A stretch of DNA of 26,738 bases from Candidatus Saccharimonadia bacterium (lineage in GTDB: Bacteria > Patescibacteriota > Saccharimonadia > UBA4664), in assembly GCA_036266515.1 (NCBI GenBank), contig DATAMV010000111.1, forward strand, positions 1 to 26,738, given 5' to 3'. Within the stretch, counting starts at the first letter, position 1; each line of letters begins with the position of its first letter. This document shows positions 19,624 to 26,738 of this stretch, piece by piece. Position numbers and translations under genes: made by a program. The notes under the pieces are model-generated. The model saw only the letters and a program-made list of their open reading frames with translations. It was not told the origin of the DNA and made no database searches.

Positions 19624-20304
19624 ATGGATCACGTTTCTGTCCCGCTGCAAATGATCTTCCACCCGGTTAAGTACTTCCGGCGCTGGCTCAATATTTACCG
19701 CCAGTGGGAATTCTGGGCGTTGTGCCTGGTGGTGTTAGGCTGCTACTACTCGCTCGATGCGGCTGGGCTACTCCCCCGCTATCTTCACGATCATCCCAAT
19801 GTCGCAAAGACGATTACGACGGCGATCATATTGCTTCCTATGCCCTATCTGATTGCGCGCAAAGAGCGCCGACTTCACGGACGCGACGATTGGTTTATGC
19901 GGATTCTGGGGCGCGTGCAGCGCGGAAAACTGCTGCCCACTACGATTGCGGGGCTGCTCGGCGTGGCTGCAATTTCGTTCTTCTTCCCGATCTTTGCCGA
20001 TATCCACACCAAAGCTCCCCTCACCGGCTTGGGTTTAATTCTGCAGCACCCGATAGCGGCGGGAATTCCGGTGGTGGCTCTGGGAGCGGCCGCGGCGGTC
20101 CTGTGGGATTACCAGGAGTGGCGGTGGTTTGCGTTTTTCTGGGCGATTGGCGCCAGCGCGGGCGTGTTTGCCGTGGCGGGCCTCTACACTGACGCCGATG
20201 CTGATATTTCCGGCATCGGGGGCTGGGCCGGCATGGTCGCGCTCCTTGCCCCCGCAGTTGCGGCGGTACTGTGCCTGATTCCGCAAAAGGTGCGAGCGAA
20301 ATGA
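19624..20304 (+). CDS. Hypothetical polytopic membrane protein (about 6 TM)
   Basis: 226 aa, multiple hydrophobic segments; TATGCT 6 nt before the ATG; no family recognised. Confidence 0.7.
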   Translation: MDHVSVPLQMIFHPVKYFRRWLNIYRQWEFWALCLVVLGCYYSLDAAGLLPRYLHDHPNVAKTITTAIILLPMPYLIARKERRLHGRDDWFMRILGRVQRGKLLPTTIAGLLGVAAISFFFPIFADIHTKAPLTGLGLILQHPIAAGIPVVALGAAAAVLWDYQEWRWFAFFWAIGASAGVFAVAGLYTDADADISGIGGWAGMVALLAPAVAAVLCLIPQKVRAK

Positions 20305-20900
20305 AGGCAAAACTCCAGGTCTCTGACCTGAATAATAGAATTTATAGCCATATTTCTATCGCCTTTTCTGCATTCGATGATGCAGACGAAGAACGGGTAC
20401 TAAAAGAGACCGTTAAGCCGTCCACACAACTTCCCCTTATGACCACACACGATATAAGGCAGAAATACGGCGTATCCGACGAAGTAGCGACACATCTTGT
20501 CGGCTTTCAGAATGAGATTATGGCCGACTTCGATGCCGCCGTTGAGTCGCTAATGTCGCGCTCGGAGCGATACCTTGAGGTCAAGCCGTTTCTTGGCGAC
20601 AAGAAATTTAATAAAGGTCTCTTGGAAGAATACGTCGACCAAAATATCAGTTTGAAAGACTTGAACCCGACGAATAACCTCTACAGGGCTTTGGGTGCGG
20701 CGGCTATCTCGTTTGTCCTGCTGGCCCTTGTGATTTGGATCACCAGGATTCCGCATCTTGATCTTGGAATAGACCCAATCGGTGGTAGCATTCTTGGAAT
20801 CATCTGGGTGGGACTAACTTTATTGGGCGCAGCTAGTATTCCAAAGCGCTATCGCACCAGAAAGCTGCTGGTGCACCTGGCTAAATCGAAGCGGCCGTAA
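20301..20900 (+). CDS. Hypothetical protein with two C-terminal TM helices (start probably ATG 20301)
   Basis: ATGA overlap with the previous stop; soluble acidic N-terminal region, two hydrophobic segments, basic tail; visibly AT-richer than its neighbours. Confidence 0.7.
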   Translation: MKAKLQVSDLNNRIYSHISIAFSAFDDADEERVLKETVKPSTQLPLMTTHDIRQKYGVSDEVATHLVGFQNEIMADFDAAVESLMSRSERYLEVKPFLGDKKFNKGLLEEYVDQNISLKDLNPTNNLYRALGAAAISFVLLALVIWITRIPHLDLGIDPIGGSILGIIWVGLTLLGAASIPKRYRTRKLLVHLAKSKRP

Positions 20901-21386
20901 CTACTCGCCCTTGTCGCCCTTGGGCTTGTCGAGGCCGAGTTTTTCGCCGATCATGTCGAGCACCTGGCGCGGGGTGAGTTCGGCCTTCACAAGGTACTCA
21001 GCGCCGTAGGAGTGGGCAGCATTGCGGTCGGACAGTTCGGACGAGTTGGTGAGGACGATCACGGGCATGGAGGTGAAATCGAAGTTGTCGTTTTGGAGGG
21101 CGCCCAGCACTTCCAGGCCGGAGAGTTCGGGCATGTTGATATCGAGTACGGCCAGATTGGGGTGCTCGGATTTGATGGCCTCAAACGCGTCGCGTCCGTT
21201 GTTTTTGACGATAACTTTGTAGCCTGCGCTTTCGAGCTTGATCTGATACATGCGCGAGATGAAGGGGTCATCCTCGGCGATCAGGATCTGCTTTTGACCA
21301 TCGGACGCGGCTGGTTTGGCCGGTGCCGCTTCGGGATCGGTCATGGTAAACGTGGGTTCAGGCTTTGTGGGGGTTGTGTCGGCCAT
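20901..21386 (-). CDS. Single-domain response regulator (receiver only)
   Basis: ILIAEDD, VLDINMP (phospho-Asp), VIVLTN, YLVK; GAGGT 8 nt before ATG 21386, so the track's 21485 start is probably spurious; no output domain. Confidence 0.9.
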   Translation of the reverse strand: MADTTPTKPEPTFTMTDPEAAPAKPAASDGQKQILIAEDDPFISRMYQIKLESAGYKVIVKNNGRDAFEAIKSEHPNLAVLDINMPELSGLEVLGALQNDNFDFTSMPVIVLTNSSELSDRNAAHSYGAEYLVKAELTPRQVLDMIGEKLGLDKPKGDKGE

Positions 21387-23535
21387 GGTGCGGGACCTCG
21401 TGAATTGGTTTGACGGGTTTAAAGGGCAGTTCGAATCCGAATGTTGAGCCTTTACCTTCGACGCTGCTAAATATAATTGTACCACCCTGGTCCTGAATTA
21501 CGCGCTTGGCCAAGTACAGGCCGAGGCCGGTGCCGTCGGGGCGGACGGTCTGGGCGTTGTCGGCCCGGAAGAATTTACTAAAGAGCTTTTTGCGGGCTTT
21601 TTCTGGCACACCGATGCCGGTGTCGCGGACTTCGAGACGGATATTTTCTCCGGCTTTTTCGAGAGTCACGCGCACCTCGCCTTGCTGGGTGTAGTAGATG
21701 GCGTTGTCGATGAAGTTCATGACCACTTGTCTCGTCTTGTTGTCGTCGACTTCGGCAGGGGGCAGGCCGCCGGGCGGGGCGTCGAAGATGAGCTTGATAC
21801 CCTTGGCTGAGGCGTGCGACTGTAGCTGCCGGACCTCGTCGTTGACCATAGCGATCATGTCGGTGGGCTTGGTCTGGATGAGGAAGCGGCCCGCCGAGAG
21901 GCGGCTGACGTTTAAGAGATCGGAGATGAGGTTGACCATGCGCTCGGACGAGTCAAAGGCGTACTGGGTAAACTCGGATTGGCCTTTGCTGAGTTTGCCG
22001 GCATCGCCTTCGAGCATCATCGAGAGATAGCCCTTGATGGTGGTGAGCGGCGTGCGCAGCTGGTGCGAGGCCATGCTGATGAATTCGTCTTTAGCGTGGT
22101 CAAGCTCTTTGAGGTGGCGGTTGGCTACACGCAGCCGGTTGGTGGCGTGGTCCACGCGTGCCTGGAGTGTGAGGTTAAATTCCTGGATCTGCGCGTAGGC
22201 CTTGGCATTGGAAATTGCCACAGCCAGCTCACCGGCGATGATTTCGAGCAGTTCGGCATCCTGCGTTGAGTAAATTTCGCCCGATAACTTGTCGCCCAGG
22301 AGCAGGTAGCCAATGAATTCGTCGCGCGTGCGCAGGGTCATGGAGAGGCGCACGCCATGTTTGTCCATAAGGGTTTTGCGCTCACCGCCCGGTAGCTCAT
22401 CGGCTACGAGCATGGGCTTGTCGAGCTTGGCCAGCTCCGGTGCCACCATGAGGCGCCGAGGTAGCTCACCGTAGTGCTCCACTCGGTACACCCGGTCATT
22501 ATTAAAGACAATGATTTGGGCGAATTGGATATGAAGGCTTTCGCTAAGCTCAGTAAGCGAACGCTTGAGAATACGGTTGAGATCGAGTTCTGAGACGAGC
22601 AGCTTGGTGAAATTATTGAGTACAACTTCGGTATCGTAACCGTTGCGGAAGAAGACCGTGTTTGTTATCCGTTCAAAAAAGAGACGTAATGGCTGGAAAA
22701 TAAGAGCCACAGAAAGGGCCAGTGCGGTCGTGATTATGCCCTGCTGTACGGTTTCGCTGGTCGATGGCAAAAATATCCGGGAGATCACGAGCAGAATGGC
22801 GCCGCACGCAACGGCTAGCGTTGTCAGAAGCAGGACGTACGCCACCGAACGGGCCACGAGAATTCGAATGTTGAAGAGACGGTGGCGGATAATGGCGTAC
22901 GTACAGATGCCGATGAATACCAGAATGAAATACGAACCGAGCGCTGCCAGGTCATTGTTGCCCTGGATAAGCGGGAGAAAGAGATTGGTGATGGAAGTCA
23001 GGACCGCCGTAAGAATTAATCCGGTGGCCACGTAGCGAACCCGCTCTTTTTCGACGCTCGTACTATGAATAAGCTGGTGTCTGATGAGCCAGAAGGTCAA
23101 AACTATCCCTATAACTACGTAGGCAATAAAGATGGGATAGAGTGACCCCTCTACGACATTGGCCCGGTCGGGGCTTAGCTCAACTCGTGGCACAAAATTC
23201 GGTAAGAGCGTGATGATGGCAACGATGGTCGTAAGGGCACCGAAAATAAGGGTTGGTGTCAGGGAGAAGACCTTGCGTGACAAATTGTTAATAAACAGAA
23301 ACATCAAGAGAATCAAAAAAGCGCTCAGCGCGAAGGTGAGCCGGACCCACACCAAGCTTCTCGCCTGGTCGTGGTCGGCCAAATAATTTATGACCGAATA
23401 TACCCCCGCCAAACCACAAAGGGTCGCAAAGAATTGGTTTGTGCGGCTTTTCCCATTGTTTAGCAGGGTAATGAGGCCGAGGCCGATTGACGCACAAGCA
23501 ACACCCAACACACCATAAAAGCTTACGCTTAACAT
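21358..23535 (-). CDS. Sensor histidine kinase: 7TM sensor, GAF-like, HisKA, HATPase
   Basis: N-terminal TM bundle; GAF-type 'LLGDKLSGEIYSTQDAELLEIIAGELAVAISNA'; H-box SMASHQLRTPLT; N-box NFIDNA; DTGIG; GTGLGL. Confidence 0.95.
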   Translation of the reverse strand: MLSVSFYGVLGVACASIGLGLITLLNNGKSRTNQFFATLCGLAGVYSVINYLADHDQARSLVWVRLTFALSAFLILLMFLFINNLSRKVFSLTPTLIFGALTTIVAIITLLPNFVPRVELSPDRANVVEGSLYPIFIAYVVIGIVLTFWLIRHQLIHSTSVEKERVRYVATGLILTAVLTSITNLFLPLIQGNNDLAALGSYFILVFIGICTYAIIRHRLFNIRILVARSVAYVLLLTTLAVACGAILLVISRIFLPSTSETVQQGIITTALALSVALIFQPLRLFFERITNTVFFRNGYDTEVVLNNFTKLLVSELDLNRILKRSLTELSESLHIQFAQIIVFNNDRVYRVEHYGELPRRLMVAPELAKLDKPMLVADELPGGERKTLMDKHGVRLSMTLRTRDEFIGYLLLGDKLSGEIYSTQDAELLEIIAGELAVAISNAKAYAQIQEFNLTLQARVDHATNRLRVANRHLKELDHAKDEFISMASHQLRTPLTTIKGYLSMMLEGDAGKLSKGQSEFTQYAFDSSERMVNLISDLLNVSRLSAGRFLIQTKPTDMIAMVNDEVRQLQSHASAKGIKLIFDAPPGGLPPAEVDDNKTRQVVMNFIDNAIYYTQQGEVRVTLEKAGENIRLEVRDTGIGVPEKARKKLFSKFFRADNAQTVRPDGTGLGLYLAKRVIQDQGGTIIFSSVEGKGSTFGFELPFKPVKPIHEVPHHGRHNPHKA

Positions 23536-23550
23536 GTCTTAATCGTAGCA
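23536..23550 (-). promoter_or_regulatory. Extended -10 leaderless promoter for the histidine kinase (TG-C-TACGAT-N6-ATG)
   Basis: Minus strand TGC TACGAT TAAGAC ATG in the 40-bp gap after the methyltransferase. Confidence 0.55.
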
Positions 23551-23575
23551 CGTCCAACCCTATTGGATGGAAGGA

Positions 23576-24313
23576 TTACGCGCCGGGCTGGTGGGTGACC
23601 TCAAATAAAATATTTACGCCGTTCTGGGGGCCGCCATAACAAACATCAGTGCTCACCCATGAGGCGCCGCTAGCCGCGACAGCCTTGCGCAGTTTAGCTT
23701 CGTCCGGGAATGCGAAGTGGCCCGTGTGCCCAAAGATATTGATGAGGGCATCGATCAGGAAAACCCCAATGAGGCGCGGGCGCAGCAGTACCCAGACCGA
23801 GGAGTGTTCGAAATGCTCTTTGATGATGGGACCGCTTCCGGGACGAACTGAGGTCGTCGCGATAATCGCTCCATTCGGAGAGAGGACACGCATCAGCTCT
23901 TTCCACAACGCAGTCTGGTCGGCAATTGCATACAAAACATTCACCGAAATAATCCGGTCGTACGAATTGTCGGGCTGAGCTTCAAGATAGGCCTGCACGT
24001 CTGCCTGCACGAGCTCGAGGTGGCCGGCGTCACGGAATGAACGCAATTTGCGCCCGGCCACTTTAAGCATCGAGGACGAGGCGTCTACCCCAGTGGCGGT
24101 CACGCCTGCATGGCCCAGACTACGAACGAGCATGTTGCCAGTGCCGCAGCCTAGGTCAAGTACCCTTAAGCCGGCACGGAGCCTAAGCTTCGCCTCGACT
24201 AGGTCCAGGAGGTGGCGGTATGGCCAAAAAGCCAAGAGGCCGTCATAGGTATAGCCATACAAGACCCACAGTTTCTTGATCGTGGCCGATGGATGTTTGG
24301 CGTGACTACTCAT
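23576..24313 (-). CDS. Class I SAM-dependent methyltransferase
   Basis: Motif I VLDLGCGTG, VDASSSML, QADV, YDRIISVNVLY, LSPNG; start overlaps the upstream stop by 8 nt. Confidence 0.9.
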   Translation of the reverse strand: MSSHAKHPSATIKKLWVLYGYTYDGLLAFWPYRHLLDLVEAKLRLRAGLRVLDLGCGTGNMLVRSLGHAGVTATGVDASSSMLKVAGRKLRSFRDAGHLELVQADVQAYLEAQPDNSYDRIISVNVLYAIADQTALWKELMRVLSPNGAIIATTSVRPGSGPIIKEHFEHSSVWVLLRPRLIGVFLIDALINIFGHTGHFAFPDEAKLRKAVAASGASWVSTDVCYGGPQNGVNILFEVTHQPGA

Positions 24314-25073
24314 GGCTAATGGCAGCCTGGTGCAGCTTATTTAGCTCGTTGCGGTCGACTCCATCGAGCAGGAAGCGCGTCAGGGCCTCGTGCACCTTGC
24401 GCTTGAAGGGATTGAGCGGCTTCACGGCCAATAGGTAATCAAAGAGCCGTTCGGTATCAAGCATTAGTGGCACCACATCGTGGCCTTTGAAATGGCGCTT
24501 CTCGCCGATACGTTGAAGCATCCGCCCAAATAATAGCTTCAACCGCAAATATAAACGTACGTCGCACGACATGAGCCAAGTCTGGTAACCATTTTGGACT
24601 GAATATAGCCACATGGCTTTATACAGCATAAAAACAGCGGCGGTACTGGTGCCGCGCTCTTTAACAAGCCCCGAGACCTCGGCGCACGACGCAGGATCTA
24701 GGAGTTCAATCTTGGCTTTATATTTTTTGTATAGAGGCTGGTGAATATAGGTCTGGAACGAGTCGTGTCCCTTGTGTGGGTCCTTGTAAATCAAGCGCGC
24801 CGCGGACACGACCTGCGGTTCGGGCAGGTCAGTTCGCTCCACCACAAAATACTGGGAGTGAAATTGGTACGGGTCTTCCTTTGGTCCGATATATAGAGCG
24901 TCATCGGTGAGGTCAGTGGGTTTTACAAAACCCCGCGCAAGGTAAACCTTGGCATGCAGCTGTTTAGCTTTATTCAGGTAATGGGGTTCATCGACTACGA
25001 TTACCCGGAACATGCCGGTGTCTTCTTTGAAAACCTTGTTAAACGTTAGTAACTGGGAGATTTTCTTGAACAT
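24306..25073 (-). CDS. GNAT-fold acyltransferase of the N-acyl amino acid synthase (FeeM) / LuxI-like type
   Basis: 'AKQLHAKVYLARGF...EDPYQFHSQYF...VVSAARLI...AEVSGLVK...MLYKAM...WLMSCD' follows the FeeM/LuxI layout (helix..VY..G, acidic D-x-Y/F, RL strand, E-x-S). Divergent; not a confident LuxI. Confidence 0.68.
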   Translation of the reverse strand: MFKKISQLLTFNKVFKEDTGMFRVIVVDEPHYLNKAKQLHAKVYLARGFVKPTDLTDDALYIGPKEDPYQFHSQYFVVERTDLPEPQVVSAARLIYKDPHKGHDSFQTYIHQPLYKKYKAKIELLDPASCAEVSGLVKERGTSTAAVFMLYKAMWLYSVQNGYQTWLMSCDVRLYLRLKLLFGRMLQRIGEKRHFKGHDVVPLMLDTERLFDYLLAVKPLNPFKRKVHEALTRFLLDGVDRNELNKLHQAAISHE

Positions 25074-25130: not shown

Positions 25131-25160
25131 ATCATATCATTATGTGTTCTAAATAATCAA
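25131..25160 (-). promoter_or_regulatory. Promoter for the acyltransferase-methyltransferase-kinase cassette (TTGATT-18-TATGAT, extended TG)
   Basis: -35 at 25155-25160, -10 at 25131-25136 on the minus strand. Confidence 0.6.
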
Positions 25161-25262: not shown

Positions 25263-25291
25263 CTGACATTGTCTGACATTTTCACTATAAT
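25263..25291 (+). promoter_or_regulatory. Proximal promoter for the plsC-like gene (CTGACA-17-TATAAT)
   Basis: -35 25263-25268, -10 25286-25291, 10 nt before ATG 25302; overlaps a TCTGACATT direct repeat. Confidence 0.6.
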
Positions 25292-25301
25292 TGGGAATTA
25301 A

Positions 25302-25946
25302 ATGGACATTGATACCACTGCTTATTCAATGAGCGAACCGGGCATCTACGGGATGCATCGATACATTGCCATTGCGCAACTAAGCGTCATGGCAGTTGGT
25401 GGGTTTATTAATTTCATATTGCTGCGGCACTTCAAGCGTCAGCTTAAGATTGCGGACATTGAGCCGGGCATGCGCTACGTGGTGGCTTCAAACCACCAGA
25501 CGTTTTTGGACCCGTTCGTAGTTCCGGCATTTTTCTCGTTTCGACTATGGGGAAAACTTGGCCGTCCGCATACGATGGTGGCAAATCGCTTTTTCCGTAA
25601 TCCCATTTTTGGATTTTATCTGCGCAGCGTCGGCTGCTTCCCCGCCCGGGTGCATGCTACCGATCCGTATGGACTTGACTATGCAAGGGTCCACCTGGAT
25701 AGGGGCGAATCGGTCATTATTTATCCCGAAGGCAAGCTCAGCCGCCGGCGCCAAAACCGTGCTCACAACGGCATAATGGTCCTGGCCCACCAGCCAAACG
25801 TCCGTGTCATTCCTGTTCACATCGAATGGCGGCGCAATCGGTGGGGTTTCTATATTTTGGACGCGTGTGTTGGCAAGCCGTTTGACGCTCGCCAGATGCT
25901 AGCCGAAGAGATTCTCGAGTATATCTACTCTGTTCCGGTCGATTAG
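25302..25946 (+). CDS. Lysophospholipid/1-acyl-sn-glycerol-3-phosphate acyltransferase family (PlsC-like)
   Basis: NHQTFLDP (HxxxxD), GCFP, IYPEG, IPVHI; N-terminal hydrophobic segment. Confidence 0.88.
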   Translation: MDIDTTAYSMSEPGIYGMHRYIAIAQLSVMAVGGFINFILLRHFKRQLKIADIEPGMRYVVASNHQTFLDPFVVPAFFSFRLWGKLGRPHTMVANRFFRNPIFGFYLRSVGCFPARVHATDPYGLDYARVHLDRGESVIIYPEGKLSRRRQNRAHNGIMVLAHQPNVRVIPVHIEWRRNRWGFYILDACVGKPFDARQMLAEEILEYIYSVPVD

Positions 25947-26011
25947 GGTCTTCGGCTACTCGCGGCTTGGGACCGCTGGAATTTGATCTGGGTTGTGCTA
26001 GGATGCAAGGT

Positions 26012-26738
26012 ATGAATACTGCTTATTCTCCATGGCTCGTATCACCTAATGCAGCCCCGGAATCGGCGGCTGAGATTCTCTCCTACCTCATTGATTTTGC
26101 GGTGCTGGCACCCTCGAGCCACAACACCCAACCGTGGCAGTTCCGCGTGAACGGCGACGCCCTTGAGGTATACGCGGACCAGGCGCGGCGGTTGCCGGTA
26201 GCTGACCCCACTGATCGCCAACTCTACATTAGCCTGGGAGCGGCGCTTGAGAATATTGAGCGGGCGGCGGCGGCGATTGGTAAGTCTGCCGTTGTTAGGT
26301 ATGTATTGGACGGAGACTTGGCTGCCCGCGTGACGGTCCAAACTGGTGCATATGGCGTCGCGGATGCTCGTACAGCCATGATTGCGCGGCGTAGCACGCG
26401 TCTGCCGTTTGCGCTCGATCCGCTGGCTGGTCCGCTGGTGGACGGAATCACTGCCGCTGGGCGCGGAGGCACGGCCGTGCATTTGCTGCAGGAGCGGCCG
26501 GAAGTGGAGGCAGTGGCGCGCATTAACGCCGACGCCAGCGGCCGGGCGCTGTCCGATCCGGTATTCCGCATGGAGCTGGTGAAATGGGTGCGCAACAACT
26601 GGACCAAACAACCCGACGGCATGCCGGGTTTTGTGCAGAATATTCCCGGACCAGTCTCCCTGCTCGCACCCGTTATTATGCGCAAAGTGAATATCGGCCC
26701 AGACCAGGCCAAGAAGGATTACGCGCTGTTTGCGGCCA
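26012..26738 (+). CDS. Acg-family FMN-binding nitroreductase-like protein (partial, runs off right edge)
   Basis: Not in the track (no stop in window). Open frame from ATG 26012: ...FAVLAPSSHNTQPWQF...RRLPVADPTDRQLYISLGAALEN...FRMELVKWVR...DGMPG. TG-C-TAGGAT lies 7 nt upstream of the ATG. Confidence 0.88.
   Translation, partial: MNTAYSPWLVSPNAAPESAAEILSYLIDFAVLAPSSHNTQPWQFRVNGDALEVYADQARRLPVADPTDRQLYISLGAALENIERAAAAIGKSAVVRYVLDGDLAARVTVQTGAYGVADARTAMIARRSTRLPFALDPLAGPLVDGITAAGRGGTAVHLLQERPEVEAVARINADASGRALSDPVFRMELVKWVRNNWTKQPDGMPGFVQNIPGPVSLLAPVIMRKVNIGPDQAKKDYALFAA

What the first reader, a model, noticed from the sequence alone, without database searches (positions are those of the whole stretch)
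20901..25073. Signal-synthase/receptor cassette: FeeM/LuxI-fold acyltransferase, methyltransferase, 7TM-GAF kinase, receiver
Seen: four co-oriented genes. Acyltransferase and methyltransferase overlap by 8 nt, kinase and receiver by 29 nt. One promoter heads the cassette and a second leaderless promoter sits just before the kinase. Established: quorum-sensing loci typically place a synthase beside its sensor (luxI/luxR; Ralstonia phcB methyltransferase with phcS/phcR). Inference: an N-acyl amino acid (or AHL-like) product is methylated and detected by the 7TM kinase. If the organism is a CPR lacking fatty-acid synthesis, the acyl donor would be host-derived, making this a host-sensing or cross-talk signal.
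Basis: partly seen in the sequence, partly recalled or inferred. Interest (0 to 1): 0.82.

Follow-up and report, generated by a model that had tools for sequence, protein, structure and literature searches.

The report
Lipid-signal enzymes paired with membrane kinase
A tiny-genome bacterium that cannot make its own fatty acids carries genes for a modified fatty-acyl amino acid next to a membrane sensor kinase whose sensing part changes whenever the enzyme set changes, which suggests, but does not prove, a private chemical signalling system.

Summary
The four genes are real, at the stated coordinates, with the stated 8-nt and 29-nt overlaps. The first is a high-confidence LuxI/FeeM-fold acyltransferase. 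The others are a class I SAM methyltransferase, a HisKA_7TM–GAF-like histidine kinase and a receiver-only regulator. The order acyltransferase → tailoring enzyme → kinase → receiver recurs in 13 related loci and in all 10 family hits elsewhere in the phylum.

New here:
- Acyltransferase–methyltransferase fusions exist.
- The methyltransferase slot is taken by a ThiF-like gene in sister loci. Other relatives carry a PaaK-like ligase plus a split TrzS-like oxazolone synthetase.
- A divergent PlsC-like acyltransferase and an Acg-type flavin oxidase belong to the neighbourhood.
- The kinase's 7TM region co-varies with the cassette type, while its GAF and catalytic parts and the receiver track phylogeny. 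This resembles agr specificity groups.

The lineage lacks FASII, so acyl chains must be scavenged. That the kinase senses the product remains inferred (about 0.5). The second "leaderless" promoter was not found. LuxI-homologue/kinase synteny in CPR was already noted in 2020 (PMC7567580). I rate this a new variant of a known kind, interest about 0.7.

The parts
24306..25073 (-). N-acyltransferase of the LuxI/FeeM/OlsB GNAT clan (P0001, 255 aa); predicted N-acyl amino acid synthase
   Evidence: AlphaFold pLDDT 94.3. Foldseek top hits are LasI, FeeM, MesI and TofI. AHL synthases, TrzA (Rv1356c, TM 0.60) and OlsB are also hit. 29/82 family members hit PF21926 and 12/82 hit PF13444. TIGR03694 at 1e-5. 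Invariant D67, R93 and E132.
23576..24313 (-). Class I SAM-dependent methyltransferase (P0002, 245 aa), overlapping the acyltransferase by 8 nt
   Evidence: Pfam Methyltransf_25/11/31 at E 1e-16 to 1e-17. Fused to the acyltransferase domain in P0019, P0046, P0075 and P0089 and in the G045 locus L052. Nearest solved relatives are lipid and small-molecule methyltransferases.
22876..23535 (-). Kinase residues 1-220: HisKA_7TM-type membrane sensor region, the hypervariable part that co-varies with the cassette type
   Evidence: Seven hydrophobic segments, plus two more at residues 230-287. Relatives' kinases match PF16927 at E 1e-10 to 1e-16. Identity profile and permutation test.
21358..23535 (-). 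Sensor histidine kinase (P0003, 725 aa): 7TM + 2TM, GAF-like region (317-443), HisKA (481-549), HATPase_c (597-706)
   Evidence: A homologue of the N-terminal sensor region (residues 1-470) is present in 42 of 53 genomes of the order.
20901..21386 (-). Single-domain response regulator (receiver only, 161 aa from ATG 21386), overlapping the kinase by 29 nt
   Evidence: Response_reg at E 3e-20 with no output domain. 60-89% identical in relatives.
25131..25160 (-). Sigma-70-like promoter candidate heading the cassette (TTGATT-18-TATGAT, TG before -10)
   Evidence: This is a consensus match only, and the region holds no more such sites than shuffles.
25302..25946 (+). Divergent PlsC-like (LPLAT family) O-acyltransferase, 214 aa, with HX4D (NHQTFLD) and PEG motifs; the only PF01553 gene in the genome
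   Evidence: PF01553 at E 5e-17. Single copy in the genome. Motifs read. By my tally it is adjacent to 20 of 24 GNAT-type cassettes, adjacent to none of 6 PaaK-type cassettes, and absent from 5 of those 6 genomes.
25263..25291 (+). Near-consensus promoter candidate (CTGACA-17-TATAAT, 11/12), 10 nt before the PlsC-like ATG
25967..26737 (+). Acg-family FMN oxidoreductase (flavin-dependent oxidase of the nitroreductase superfamily), cut by the contig end
   Evidence: NF047509 at E 7e-49. It also matches the C-terminal oxidase half of the Rv1355c (TrzS) family at 1.6e-18. Its missing C-terminus probably lies at the end of contig C217.

Best explanation
This is a lipoamino-acid biosynthetic cassette coupled to its own membrane sensor, in a small-genome, FASII-less (Patescibacteria-like) bacterium.

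Inferred chemistry:
- The FeeM/TrzA-like acyltransferase joins a scavenged fatty acyl chain to an amino acid. The donor is probably acyl-CoA, because no ACP was found.
- The translationally coupled methyltransferase modifies that product at an unknown atom. Carboxyl O-methylation would give a neutral, AHL-like N-acyl amino acid methyl ester.
- The neighbouring Acg-type flavin oxidase may desaturate the product, as TyzC does.
- The PlsC-like enzyme may add or exchange a second acyl chain.

Inferred signalling:
- The lipophilic product partitions into the membrane and is recognised by the kinase's HisKA_7TM region.
- The kinase then phosphorylates the receiver-only regulator. With no DNA-binding domain, that regulator presumably acts through protein contacts.

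Shown here: folds and domains, gene fusions, conserved order, alternative tailoring enzymes in the same slot, absence of FASII, and co-variation of the sensor region with the cassette type.

Not shown: the product, the methylation site and ligand sensing.
For: Enzyme identity:
- The fold is LuxI/FeeM/TrzA-like, and family members hit PF21926.
- Characterised relatives TyzA and TrzA N-acylate amino acids from acyl-CoA (PMC10404671, PMC12856293).

Acyltransferase and methyltransferase work together:
- They are fused in four representative proteins and in two fetched loci.

Gene order:
- Acyltransferase, then methyltransferase or ThiF or nothing, then 7TM kinase, then receiver, in 13 loci of the order.
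- The same arrangement holds in 10 of 10 family hits from other families and classes of the phylum.
- Other kinase homologues are preceded by a second FeeM/Acetyltransf_5-like GNAT, or by a PaaK-like ligase with a ThiF-like gene matching the TrzS N-half (E 9e-84) and an Acg-type oxidase.

Sensor co-variation:
- Same-genus kinases with other cassettes are 22-32% identical in residues 1-290. They are 68-80% identical in the GAF region, 83-84% in the core and 87-89% in the receiver.
- Kinases from other families that have the same cassette keep 34-57% in residues 1-290.
- Over 253 pairs, TM identity is 39% for same-class pairs and 28% for different-class pairs, at equal GAF identity (62% and 64%). 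None of 10,000 label shuffles reached this difference.

Acyl supply:
- No KAS and no ACP in the genome. KAS is present in 2 of 53 genomes of the order. AMP-binding ligases are present.
Against: - No experiment or expression data exist.
- The cassette abuts the 5' end of the kinase gene. One recombination tract could therefore replace both, and co-variation could reflect linkage alone.
- The receiver has no output domain, so no autoinduction loop can be drawn.
- The PlsC-like gene co-occurs with GNAT-type cassettes. That fits a two-tailed membrane aminolipid better than a diffusible signal.
- FeeM-like domains fused to receiver, kinase, PilZ or cNMP domains exist elsewhere. This suggests the enzyme could be an output rather than the source of the input.
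- P0001 itself fails every curated family threshold.
- The methylated atom is unknown. In Stieleria, a methyltransferase sits together with ThiF and a nitroreductase rather than replacing them (PMC12479983).
Confidence: 0.5

Rival explanations
1. Structural aminolipid pathway (OlsB/OlsA- or GlsB/GlsA-like). The N-acyltransferase and the PlsC-like O-acyltransferase build a two-tailed amino-acid lipid, which is then methylated (compare OlsG). This would let a lipid-scavenging cell tune its own membrane. The 7TM kinase monitors membrane or envelope state rather than a signal molecule.
For: - The divergent PF01553 gene is adjacent to 20 of 24 GNAT-type cassettes. It is missing from whole genomes that carry the PaaK-type cassette instead.
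- OlsB is among the fold matches, and 12 of 82 members hit PF13444.
- The neighbourhood is envelope-related: polysaccharide deacetylase, LytR_cpsA_psr, DAGK and LPG synthase.
- The methyltransferase weakly resembles phospholipid N-methyltransferases.
Against: - ThiF-like adenylating enzymes, and an oxidase of the oxazolone pathway, replace or accompany the methyltransferase in sister loci. These have no role in ornithine or glycine lipid synthesis.
- As I recall, those pathways draw their 3-hydroxyacyl chains from FASII, and no ketoacyl synthase or ACP was found.
- A bulk lipid does not obviously explain why the sensor's 7TM region changes with the cassette type.
Confidence: 0.22
2. The enzymes are the output, not the input. 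The kinase senses an external or host cue, and the phosphorylated receiver-only regulator switches the acyltransferase (or the whole cassette) on. The product is then an effector or signal aimed at the host or at neighbours.
For: - The receiver has no DNA-binding domain, so it must act on proteins.
- FeeM-like domains occur fused to receiver, histidine-kinase, PilZ and cNMP-binding domains in other bacteria.
- A second receiver-only gene lies beside the PlsC-like gene in most related loci.
Against: It gives no reason for the 7TM region to co-vary with the cassette type, other than linkage. No fusion of this acyltransferase family with a receiver was seen among the ten long (403-543 aa) representatives scanned against Pfam.
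Confidence: 0.15
3. Neighbourhood without functional coupling. A conserved housekeeping two-component pair happens to sit beside a recombination hot spot that collects accessory lipid enzymes. The 5' end of the kinase gene is swept along with it.
For: - The kinase is far more widespread than any one cassette: homologues of its sensor region are found in 42 of 53 genomes, against 12-16 of 53 for the acyltransferase family.
- Cassette genes are more diverged than housekeeping neighbours. Against same-genus L027 they are 35-46% identical, against 61% for purD and the deacetylase.
Against: - By my classification, 28 of the 31 fetched loci whose upstream region is readable have a small-molecule enzyme directly upstream and co-oriented.
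- So do 10 of 10 distant family hits.
- Within-class TM conservation persists across families.
Confidence: 0.1

Closest known systems
Oxazolone / N-acyl amino acid pathways: OxzAB (Pseudoalteromonas rubra), TyzACB and TrzAS (M. tuberculosis), NasY clusters of Stieleria
   Same: - A FeeM-like N-acyltransferase. TrzA (Rv1356c) is the best whole-length reviewed fold match, TM 0.60.
- An Acg/FDO-type flavin oxidase next door.
- ThiF-like partners in sister loci and on contig C217.
- A methyltransferase also sits in the Stieleria clusters (PMC12479983).
- Acyl-CoA is the donor in the characterised enzymes (PMC10404671, PMC12856293).
   Different: - In this window a methyltransferase, not ThiF, follows the acyltransferase.
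- A PlsC-like acyltransferase is attached.
- The enzymes are in one operon with a 7TM histidine kinase and a receiver. The two papers I searched for these terms (bioRxiv 10.1101/2020.06.11.147165, PMC12479983) do not mention this.
- The host is a FASII-less, tiny-genome lineage.
Lipophilic-autoinducer circuits with polytopic sensor kinases: PhcB/PhcS(RQ) of Ralstonia, CqsA/CqsS and LqsA/LqsS
   Same: - A synthase gene sits beside a multi-TM histidine kinase that has no large external domain.
- PhcB is a methyltransferase that makes a fatty-acid methyl ester sensed by PhcS (PMC8578825, PMC11960443). Its gene order, methyltransferase then kinase then regulator, is as I recall it.
- In CPR genomes, kinases next to LuxI homologues were reported to match a CqsS sensory N-terminal model (PMC7567580 supplement).
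   Different: - The synthase here is a GNAT N-acyltransferase plus a methyltransferase. It is not a lone methyltransferase or a PLP-dependent enzyme.
- The sensor is a HisKA_7TM domain followed by a GAF-like region.
- The regulator is receiver-only.
- No signal has been shown.
agr specificity groups of staphylococci (recalled from my own knowledge, not tested here)
   Same: The hypervariable segment covers the signal-making genes and the N-terminal membrane sensor of the kinase. The kinase core and the response regulator stay conserved. The same split is seen here at about residue 200-300 of the kinase.
   Different: agr uses a ribosomal peptide thiolactone and a DNA-binding AgrA. Here the presumed signal is a lipoamino acid and the regulator has no output domain.
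[quoted passage not shown]
   Same: [quoted passage not shown] They are the product expected if the methyltransferase caps the carboxylate.
   Different: NAME biosynthetic genes are unknown (PMC11580390), so no sequence comparison is possible. NAMEs are reported not to take part in AHL signalling.
LuxI-homologue / sensory-kinase synteny in CPR (Bernard et al. 2020, PMC7567580)
   Same: That paper reports 18 LuxI homologues adjacent to a sensory kinase in CPR genomes and proposes them as candidate complete quorum-sensing systems. It is the same basic observation.
   Different: They are read there as AHL systems. The main text does not mention acyltransferase, N-acyl, FeeM or histidine kinase. 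I did not search it for the tailoring enzymes, cassette swapping or sensor co-variation. I could not check whether the same loci are included.
OlsB/OlsA (ornithine lipid) and GlsB/GlsA (glycine lipid) pairs
   Same: A clan-related N-acyltransferase paired with a PF01553 O-acyltransferase.
   Different: - No FASII or ACP to supply the 3-hydroxyacyl donors that, as I recall, these pathways use.
- ThiF, oxidase and methyltransferase tailoring.
- Operon with a kinase.

Membership tests
FeeM-type N-acyl amino acid synthase (PF21926, GNAT clan) | Sequence match to the family profile above its curated threshold | tested here: not met
   P0001 has no Pfam hit at E<=1. 29 of 82 family members hit PF21926 (best E 1e-8) and 12 hit PF13444. 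The relationship is therefore at the level of a divergent sister family.
FeeM-type N-acyl amino acid synthase (PF21926, GNAT clan) | LuxI/FeeM-type GNAT fold | tested here: met
   The model has pLDDT 94. FeeM 2g0b: TM 0.70-0.77 by target, rmsd 3.1-3.8. LasI: E 3e-8. AFDB clusters named FeeM or PEP-CTERM acyltransferase: TM up to 0.69.
FeeM-type N-acyl amino acid synthase (PF21926, GNAT clan) | Makes an N-acyl amino acid from an acyl thioester | not testable with these tools
   Needs expression and LC-MS.
LuxI-type AHL synthase (PF00765) | Match to the Autoind_synth profile or to AHL-synthase equivalogs | tested here: not met
   0 of 82 members hit PF00765 at E<=0.1. TraI models score 13-15 bits against cut-offs of 250-292.
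LuxI-type AHL synthase (PF00765) | Acyl-ACP donor available | tested here: not met
   No PP-binding or ACP gene and no ketoacyl synthase were found in the genome, which is 83% complete. Ketoacyl synthase is present in 2 of 53 genomes of the order.
Oxazolone pathway (OxzAB / TyzACB / TrzAS) | N-acyltransferase of the OxzA/TyzA/TrzA type | tested here: inconclusive
   The fold match to TrzA (Rv1356c) has TM 0.60 over residues 21-255 at 16% identity. There is no sequence-level match.
Oxazolone pathway (OxzAB / TyzACB / TrzAS) | Flavin-dependent oxidase of the nitroreductase superfamily adjacent | tested here: met
   25967-26737 matches the Acg family at E 7e-49 and the C-terminal half of the Rv1355c family at 1.6e-18.
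Oxazolone pathway (OxzAB / TyzACB / TrzAS) | ThiF-like cyclase adjacent or fused | tested here: inconclusive
   There is none inside the window. A ThiF-like gene lies on contig C217, which probably continues the window. ThiF takes the place of the methyltransferase in L024, L025 and L055.
Synthase/receptor two-component quorum-sensing circuit (Phc, Cqs/Lqs, agr type) | Signal-synthesis gene(s) in one locus with a polytopic sensor kinase and a response regulator | tested here: met
Synthase/receptor two-component quorum-sensing circuit (Phc, Cqs/Lqs, agr type) | Sensor specificity tracks synthase type | tested here: met
   Identity in the TM region is 39% for same-class pairs and 28% for different-class pairs, at equal GAF identity. 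None of 10,000 shuffles reached this. Linkage is an alternative cause.
Synthase/receptor two-component quorum-sensing circuit (Phc, Cqs/Lqs, agr type) | Kinase activity responds to the product; density-dependent output | not testable with these tools
   Needs biochemistry. The regulator is receiver-only, so the output is unknown.
OlsB/OlsA-type aminolipid synthesis | N-acyltransferase paired with a PF01553 O-acyltransferase | tested here: met
   The divergent PlsC-like gene at 25302-25946 is adjacent in 20 of 24 GNAT-type cassettes.
OlsB/OlsA-type aminolipid synthesis | Supply of 3-hydroxyacyl-ACP from FASII (donor as I recall it) | tested here: not met
   No KAS or ACP was found. Absence in an 83% complete genome is supported by the near-complete relatives.

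The most novel reading that the evidence does not exclude
Patescibacteria (CPR) carry an agr-like, polymorphic signalling system. Interchangeable cassettes make different lipoamino-acid derivatives (methylated, oxazolone or ligase-made) from host-derived fatty acids. Each cassette is matched to its own variant of a HisKA_7TM sensor grafted onto a conserved kinase core and receiver. Closely related strains would then speak different 'dialects', and the signal would also report the host's lipid supply.
Probability: 0.35. Interest if true: 0.88.

Novelty: new variant of a known kind. Interest (0 to 1): 0.72.

Why it matters
CPR/Patescibacteria are mostly uncultured episymbionts, and how they sense partners and each other is largely unknown. 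If the reading holds, it gives three things.

- A concrete, testable ligand–receptor pair for a widespread CPR kinase. Homologues of its sensor region occur in 42 of 53 genomes of this order.
- A physiological role, as signals, for N-acyl amino acid and oxazolone lipids. Their function in mycobacteria, Pseudoalteromonas and planctomycetes is still open.

Because the organisms cannot make fatty acids, the signal's acyl chain would have to come from the host or the surroundings. That would tie signalling to the symbiosis.

Tried and rejected
- My first favourite was an OlsB/OlsA-like structural aminolipid (stated). I downgraded it after finding ThiF and oxidase tailoring, no FASII and the sensor co-variation. 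I did not discard it, because the PlsC-like gene proved to belong to the cassette.
- AHL synthase: rejected, no PF00765 signal.
- Lipopeptide or RiPP idea, with the 59-63 aa ORF after the receiver in relatives as precursor. The ORF is a conserved 2-TM protein ending in LGR, and it is absent from the window.
- PlsC-like gene as the housekeeping PlsC: rejected. It is missing from 4 of the 5 relatives checked, three of them 94-100% complete, and it tracks GNAT-type cassettes.
- Second promoter before the kinase: not found.
- The search for related loci with alignment A2 failed for lack of a conserved stretch. With A1 it found one locus only.
- A PDB sequence search with the family profile found nothing.
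- Three upstream ORFs (in L042, L043, L047) could not be assigned by Pfam or hhalign.
- The organism's name could not be obtained. 'Patescibacteria-like' rests on genome sizes of 0.6-1.7 Mb at high completeness across the order and phylum sample, and on missing FASII.
- The methylation site could not be narrowed from sequence.

Full report
**Observation.** The region holds four co-oriented minus-strand ORFs.
- 24306-25073: P0001, 255 aa.
- 23576-24313: P0002, 245 aa.
- 21358-23535: P0003, 725 aa.
- 20901-21485: P0004. Its ATG at 21386 gives 161 aa.

The overlaps are exactly those reported: 8 nt between acyltransferase and methyltransferase, and 29 nt between kinase and receiver.

Pfam and NCBIfam show the following.
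- P0002 is a class I SAM methyltransferase.
- P0003 has HisKA and HATPase_c, plus a GAF match just under threshold.
- P0004 is a receiver with no output domain.
- P0001 has no Pfam hit. It has only weak NCBIfam hits: PEP-CTERM-associated acyltransferase at 1e-5 and TraI at 0.01.

The kinase has nine hydrophobic segments before the GAF-like region. Five relatives' kinases from four cassette types match PF16927 HisKA_7TM over its full length.

A promoter-like site heads the cassette at 25160-25131. None was found in the 40-nt gap before the kinase. Promoter-like sites in the region are no more frequent than in shuffles.

**The acyltransferase.** An exhaustive search found 252 cluster representatives at E<=0.001. 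An AlphaFold model built on 82 of them is confident, with pLDDT 94.3.
- Its best solved matches are LasI, FeeM, MesI and TofI.
- Among reviewed proteins it hits AHL synthases, OlsB and Rv1356c. Rv1356c gives the best whole-length coverage, TM 0.60.
- Rv1356c is TrzA, shown to N-acylate tryptophan from acyl-CoA (PMC12856293). TyzA does the same for Tyr and Phe (PMC10404671).
- 29 of 82 members hit PF21926 FeeM, 12 hit PF13444 and none hit PF00765.

**Coupling to the methyltransferase.** Four longer family representatives are fusions of this domain with the same kind of methyltransferase. One of them sits in the same gene order. Another fusion precedes a paralogous kinase in G045.

**Synteny.** In three metagenome contigs and ten genomes of the same order, the order is:
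- PlsC-like gene (divergent);
- acyltransferase;
- methyltransferase, ThiF or nothing;
- 7TM kinase;
- receiver;
- polysaccharide deacetylase (convergent), found in 10 of the 13 loci.

Where the methyltransferase is missing and a 1-kb gap remains, the gene in the gap is ThiF-like. A sample of 401 genomes of the phylum gave 10 further hits. The genomes listed are 0.6-1.7 Mb, almost all under 1.2 Mb. In all 10 the acyltransferase lies directly upstream of, and co-oriented with, a homologous multi-TM kinase. Six of the 10 also have ThiF beside it.

**The slot is modular.** Homologues of the kinase's sensor region are present in 42 of 53 genomes of the order. The acyltransferase family is present in 12-16. 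Upstream of the other kinases I found:
- a second, divergent FeeM/Acetyltransf_5/Autoind_synth-like GNAT (L037, L040, L044);
- a PaaK-like ligase plus a ThiF-like gene that matches the N-half of the Rv1355c (TrzS) family at 9e-84, four of the six such loci also carrying an Acg-type oxidase;
- a few unassigned ORFs.

Four cassette types occur within one genus.

The window's own genome probably carries the PaaK-like, ThiF-like and oxidase set as well. The oxidase at 25967-26737 is cut at profile position 215 by the contig end. The 3-kb contig C217 ends with the complementary tail (positions 260-314), next to a ThiF-like and a PaaK-like gene. This is the arrangement in same-genus L034.

**The PlsC-like gene belongs to the cassette.** It is the only PF01553 gene in the genome, and it has intact HX4D and PEG motifs. 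By my tally:
- it is adjacent to 20 of 24 GNAT-type cassettes;
- it is adjacent to none of 6 PaaK-type cassettes;
- five of those six genomes have no PF01553 gene at all, three of them at 94-100% completeness.

The finding is therefore at least a five-gene unit. The product may carry a second acyl chain.

**Sensor co-variation.** I aligned 32 kinases.
- Same-genus kinases with other cassettes are 22-32% identical to the window's kinase in residues 1-290. They are 68-80% identical in the GAF region, 83-84% in the catalytic core and 87-89% in the receiver.
- Kinases from other families that share the acyltransferase-plus-methyltransferase cassette keep 34-57% in residues 1-290. One example is L028: TM 45%, GAF 44%, core 64%.
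- The break lies at about residue 200-300.
- Over 253 pairs from 23 loci, TM identity is 39% for same-class pairs and 28% for different-class pairs. GAF identity is equal (62% and 64%). None of 10,000 label shuffles reached the observed difference.

From my own knowledge, this is the pattern of agr specificity groups. The caveat is that the cassette abuts the kinase's 5' end, so linkage alone could produce it.

**Host biology.** The genome is 1.15 Mb and 83% complete. It has no ketoacyl synthase and no ACP, and it has AMP-binding ligases. Ketoacyl synthase is present in only 2 of 53 genomes of the order. Acyl chains must therefore be scavenged, and acyl-CoA is the plausible donor.

**Interpretation.** The best reading (about 0.5) is a lipoamino-acid cassette whose product is recognised by the co-varying 7TM region of the kinase. 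Functionally it resembles Phc (PMC8578825, PMC11960443), Cqs/Lqs and agr. Chemically it resembles the Oxz/Tyz/Trz and NasY pathways (PMC12479983), or NAMEs, whose genes are unknown (PMC11580390).

The rivals are:
- a structural OlsBA/GlsBA-like aminolipid (0.22);
- the enzymes as output of the kinase/receiver pair, suggested by FeeM-like domains fused to REC, HK, PilZ or cNMP domains elsewhere (0.15);
- mere linkage (0.10).

**Prior art and novelty.** Bernard et al. 2020 (PMC7567580) already reported 18 LuxI homologues next to sensory kinases in CPR as candidate complete quorum-sensing systems. The oxazolone paper and the stieleriacine paper that I searched mention no kinase.

As far as I can tell, the new points are:
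- the N-acyl amino acid and oxazolone-type tailoring;
- the cassette swapping;
- the membership of the PlsC-like gene;
- the sensor co-variation.

I rate it a new variant of a known kind, with interest 0.72.

Noticed in passing
window 25967-26737 and own-genome contig C217 (L073:1-3046): The truncated Acg-type oxidase at the window's end and the oxidase tail at the end of C217 are complementary (profile positions 2-215 and 260-314). C217 also carries a ThiF-like gene of the TrzS N-half type and a PaaK-like ligase (53% identical to the L036 516-aa protein). The window therefore probably continues into a split oxazolone-synthetase-like set.
   Followed up: partly
window 19624-20304 and 20271-20900 (+): Two ORFs (226 and 209 aa) with hydrophobic stretches and no Pfam match fill the 1.4 kb between the deacetylase and the receiver. 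In four relatives where genes were called (L002, L003, L005, L055), a conserved 59-63 aa two-TM ORF ending in LGR follows the receiver there. It is absent from the window.
   Followed up: partly
G000:C108:3113-4489 (L048): The genome has a second 7TM kinase paralogue, 39% identical in the sensor region. It is preceded by an alpha/beta hydrolase and a receiver-containing gene, not by an acyltransferase.
   Followed up: partly
L056, L059, L060, L068; proteins P0088, P0092, P0103, P0114, P0123: Long forms of the acyltransferase family (400-540 aa) carry a C-terminal extension of about 150-290 aa with no Pfam match. At least four sit directly upstream of the homologous kinase.
   Followed up: no
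G034:C1:27926-28803: One relative's copy of the kinase is interrupted by several stop codons (1 TGA and 4 TAG in one stretch), next to a PlsC-like gene. It is a possible decayed copy of the module.
   Followed up: no
window 25263-25291 (+): The PlsC-like gene has a near-consensus promoter-like site (11 of 12) ending 10 nt before its ATG. That would make its mRNA leaderless or nearly so.
   Followed up: no
L002, L003, L005, L024-L031 and others: A second receiver-only gene, 31-38% identical to the operon's receiver, lies beyond the PlsC-like gene in most related loci. It cannot be seen in the window because the contig ends.
   Followed up: no
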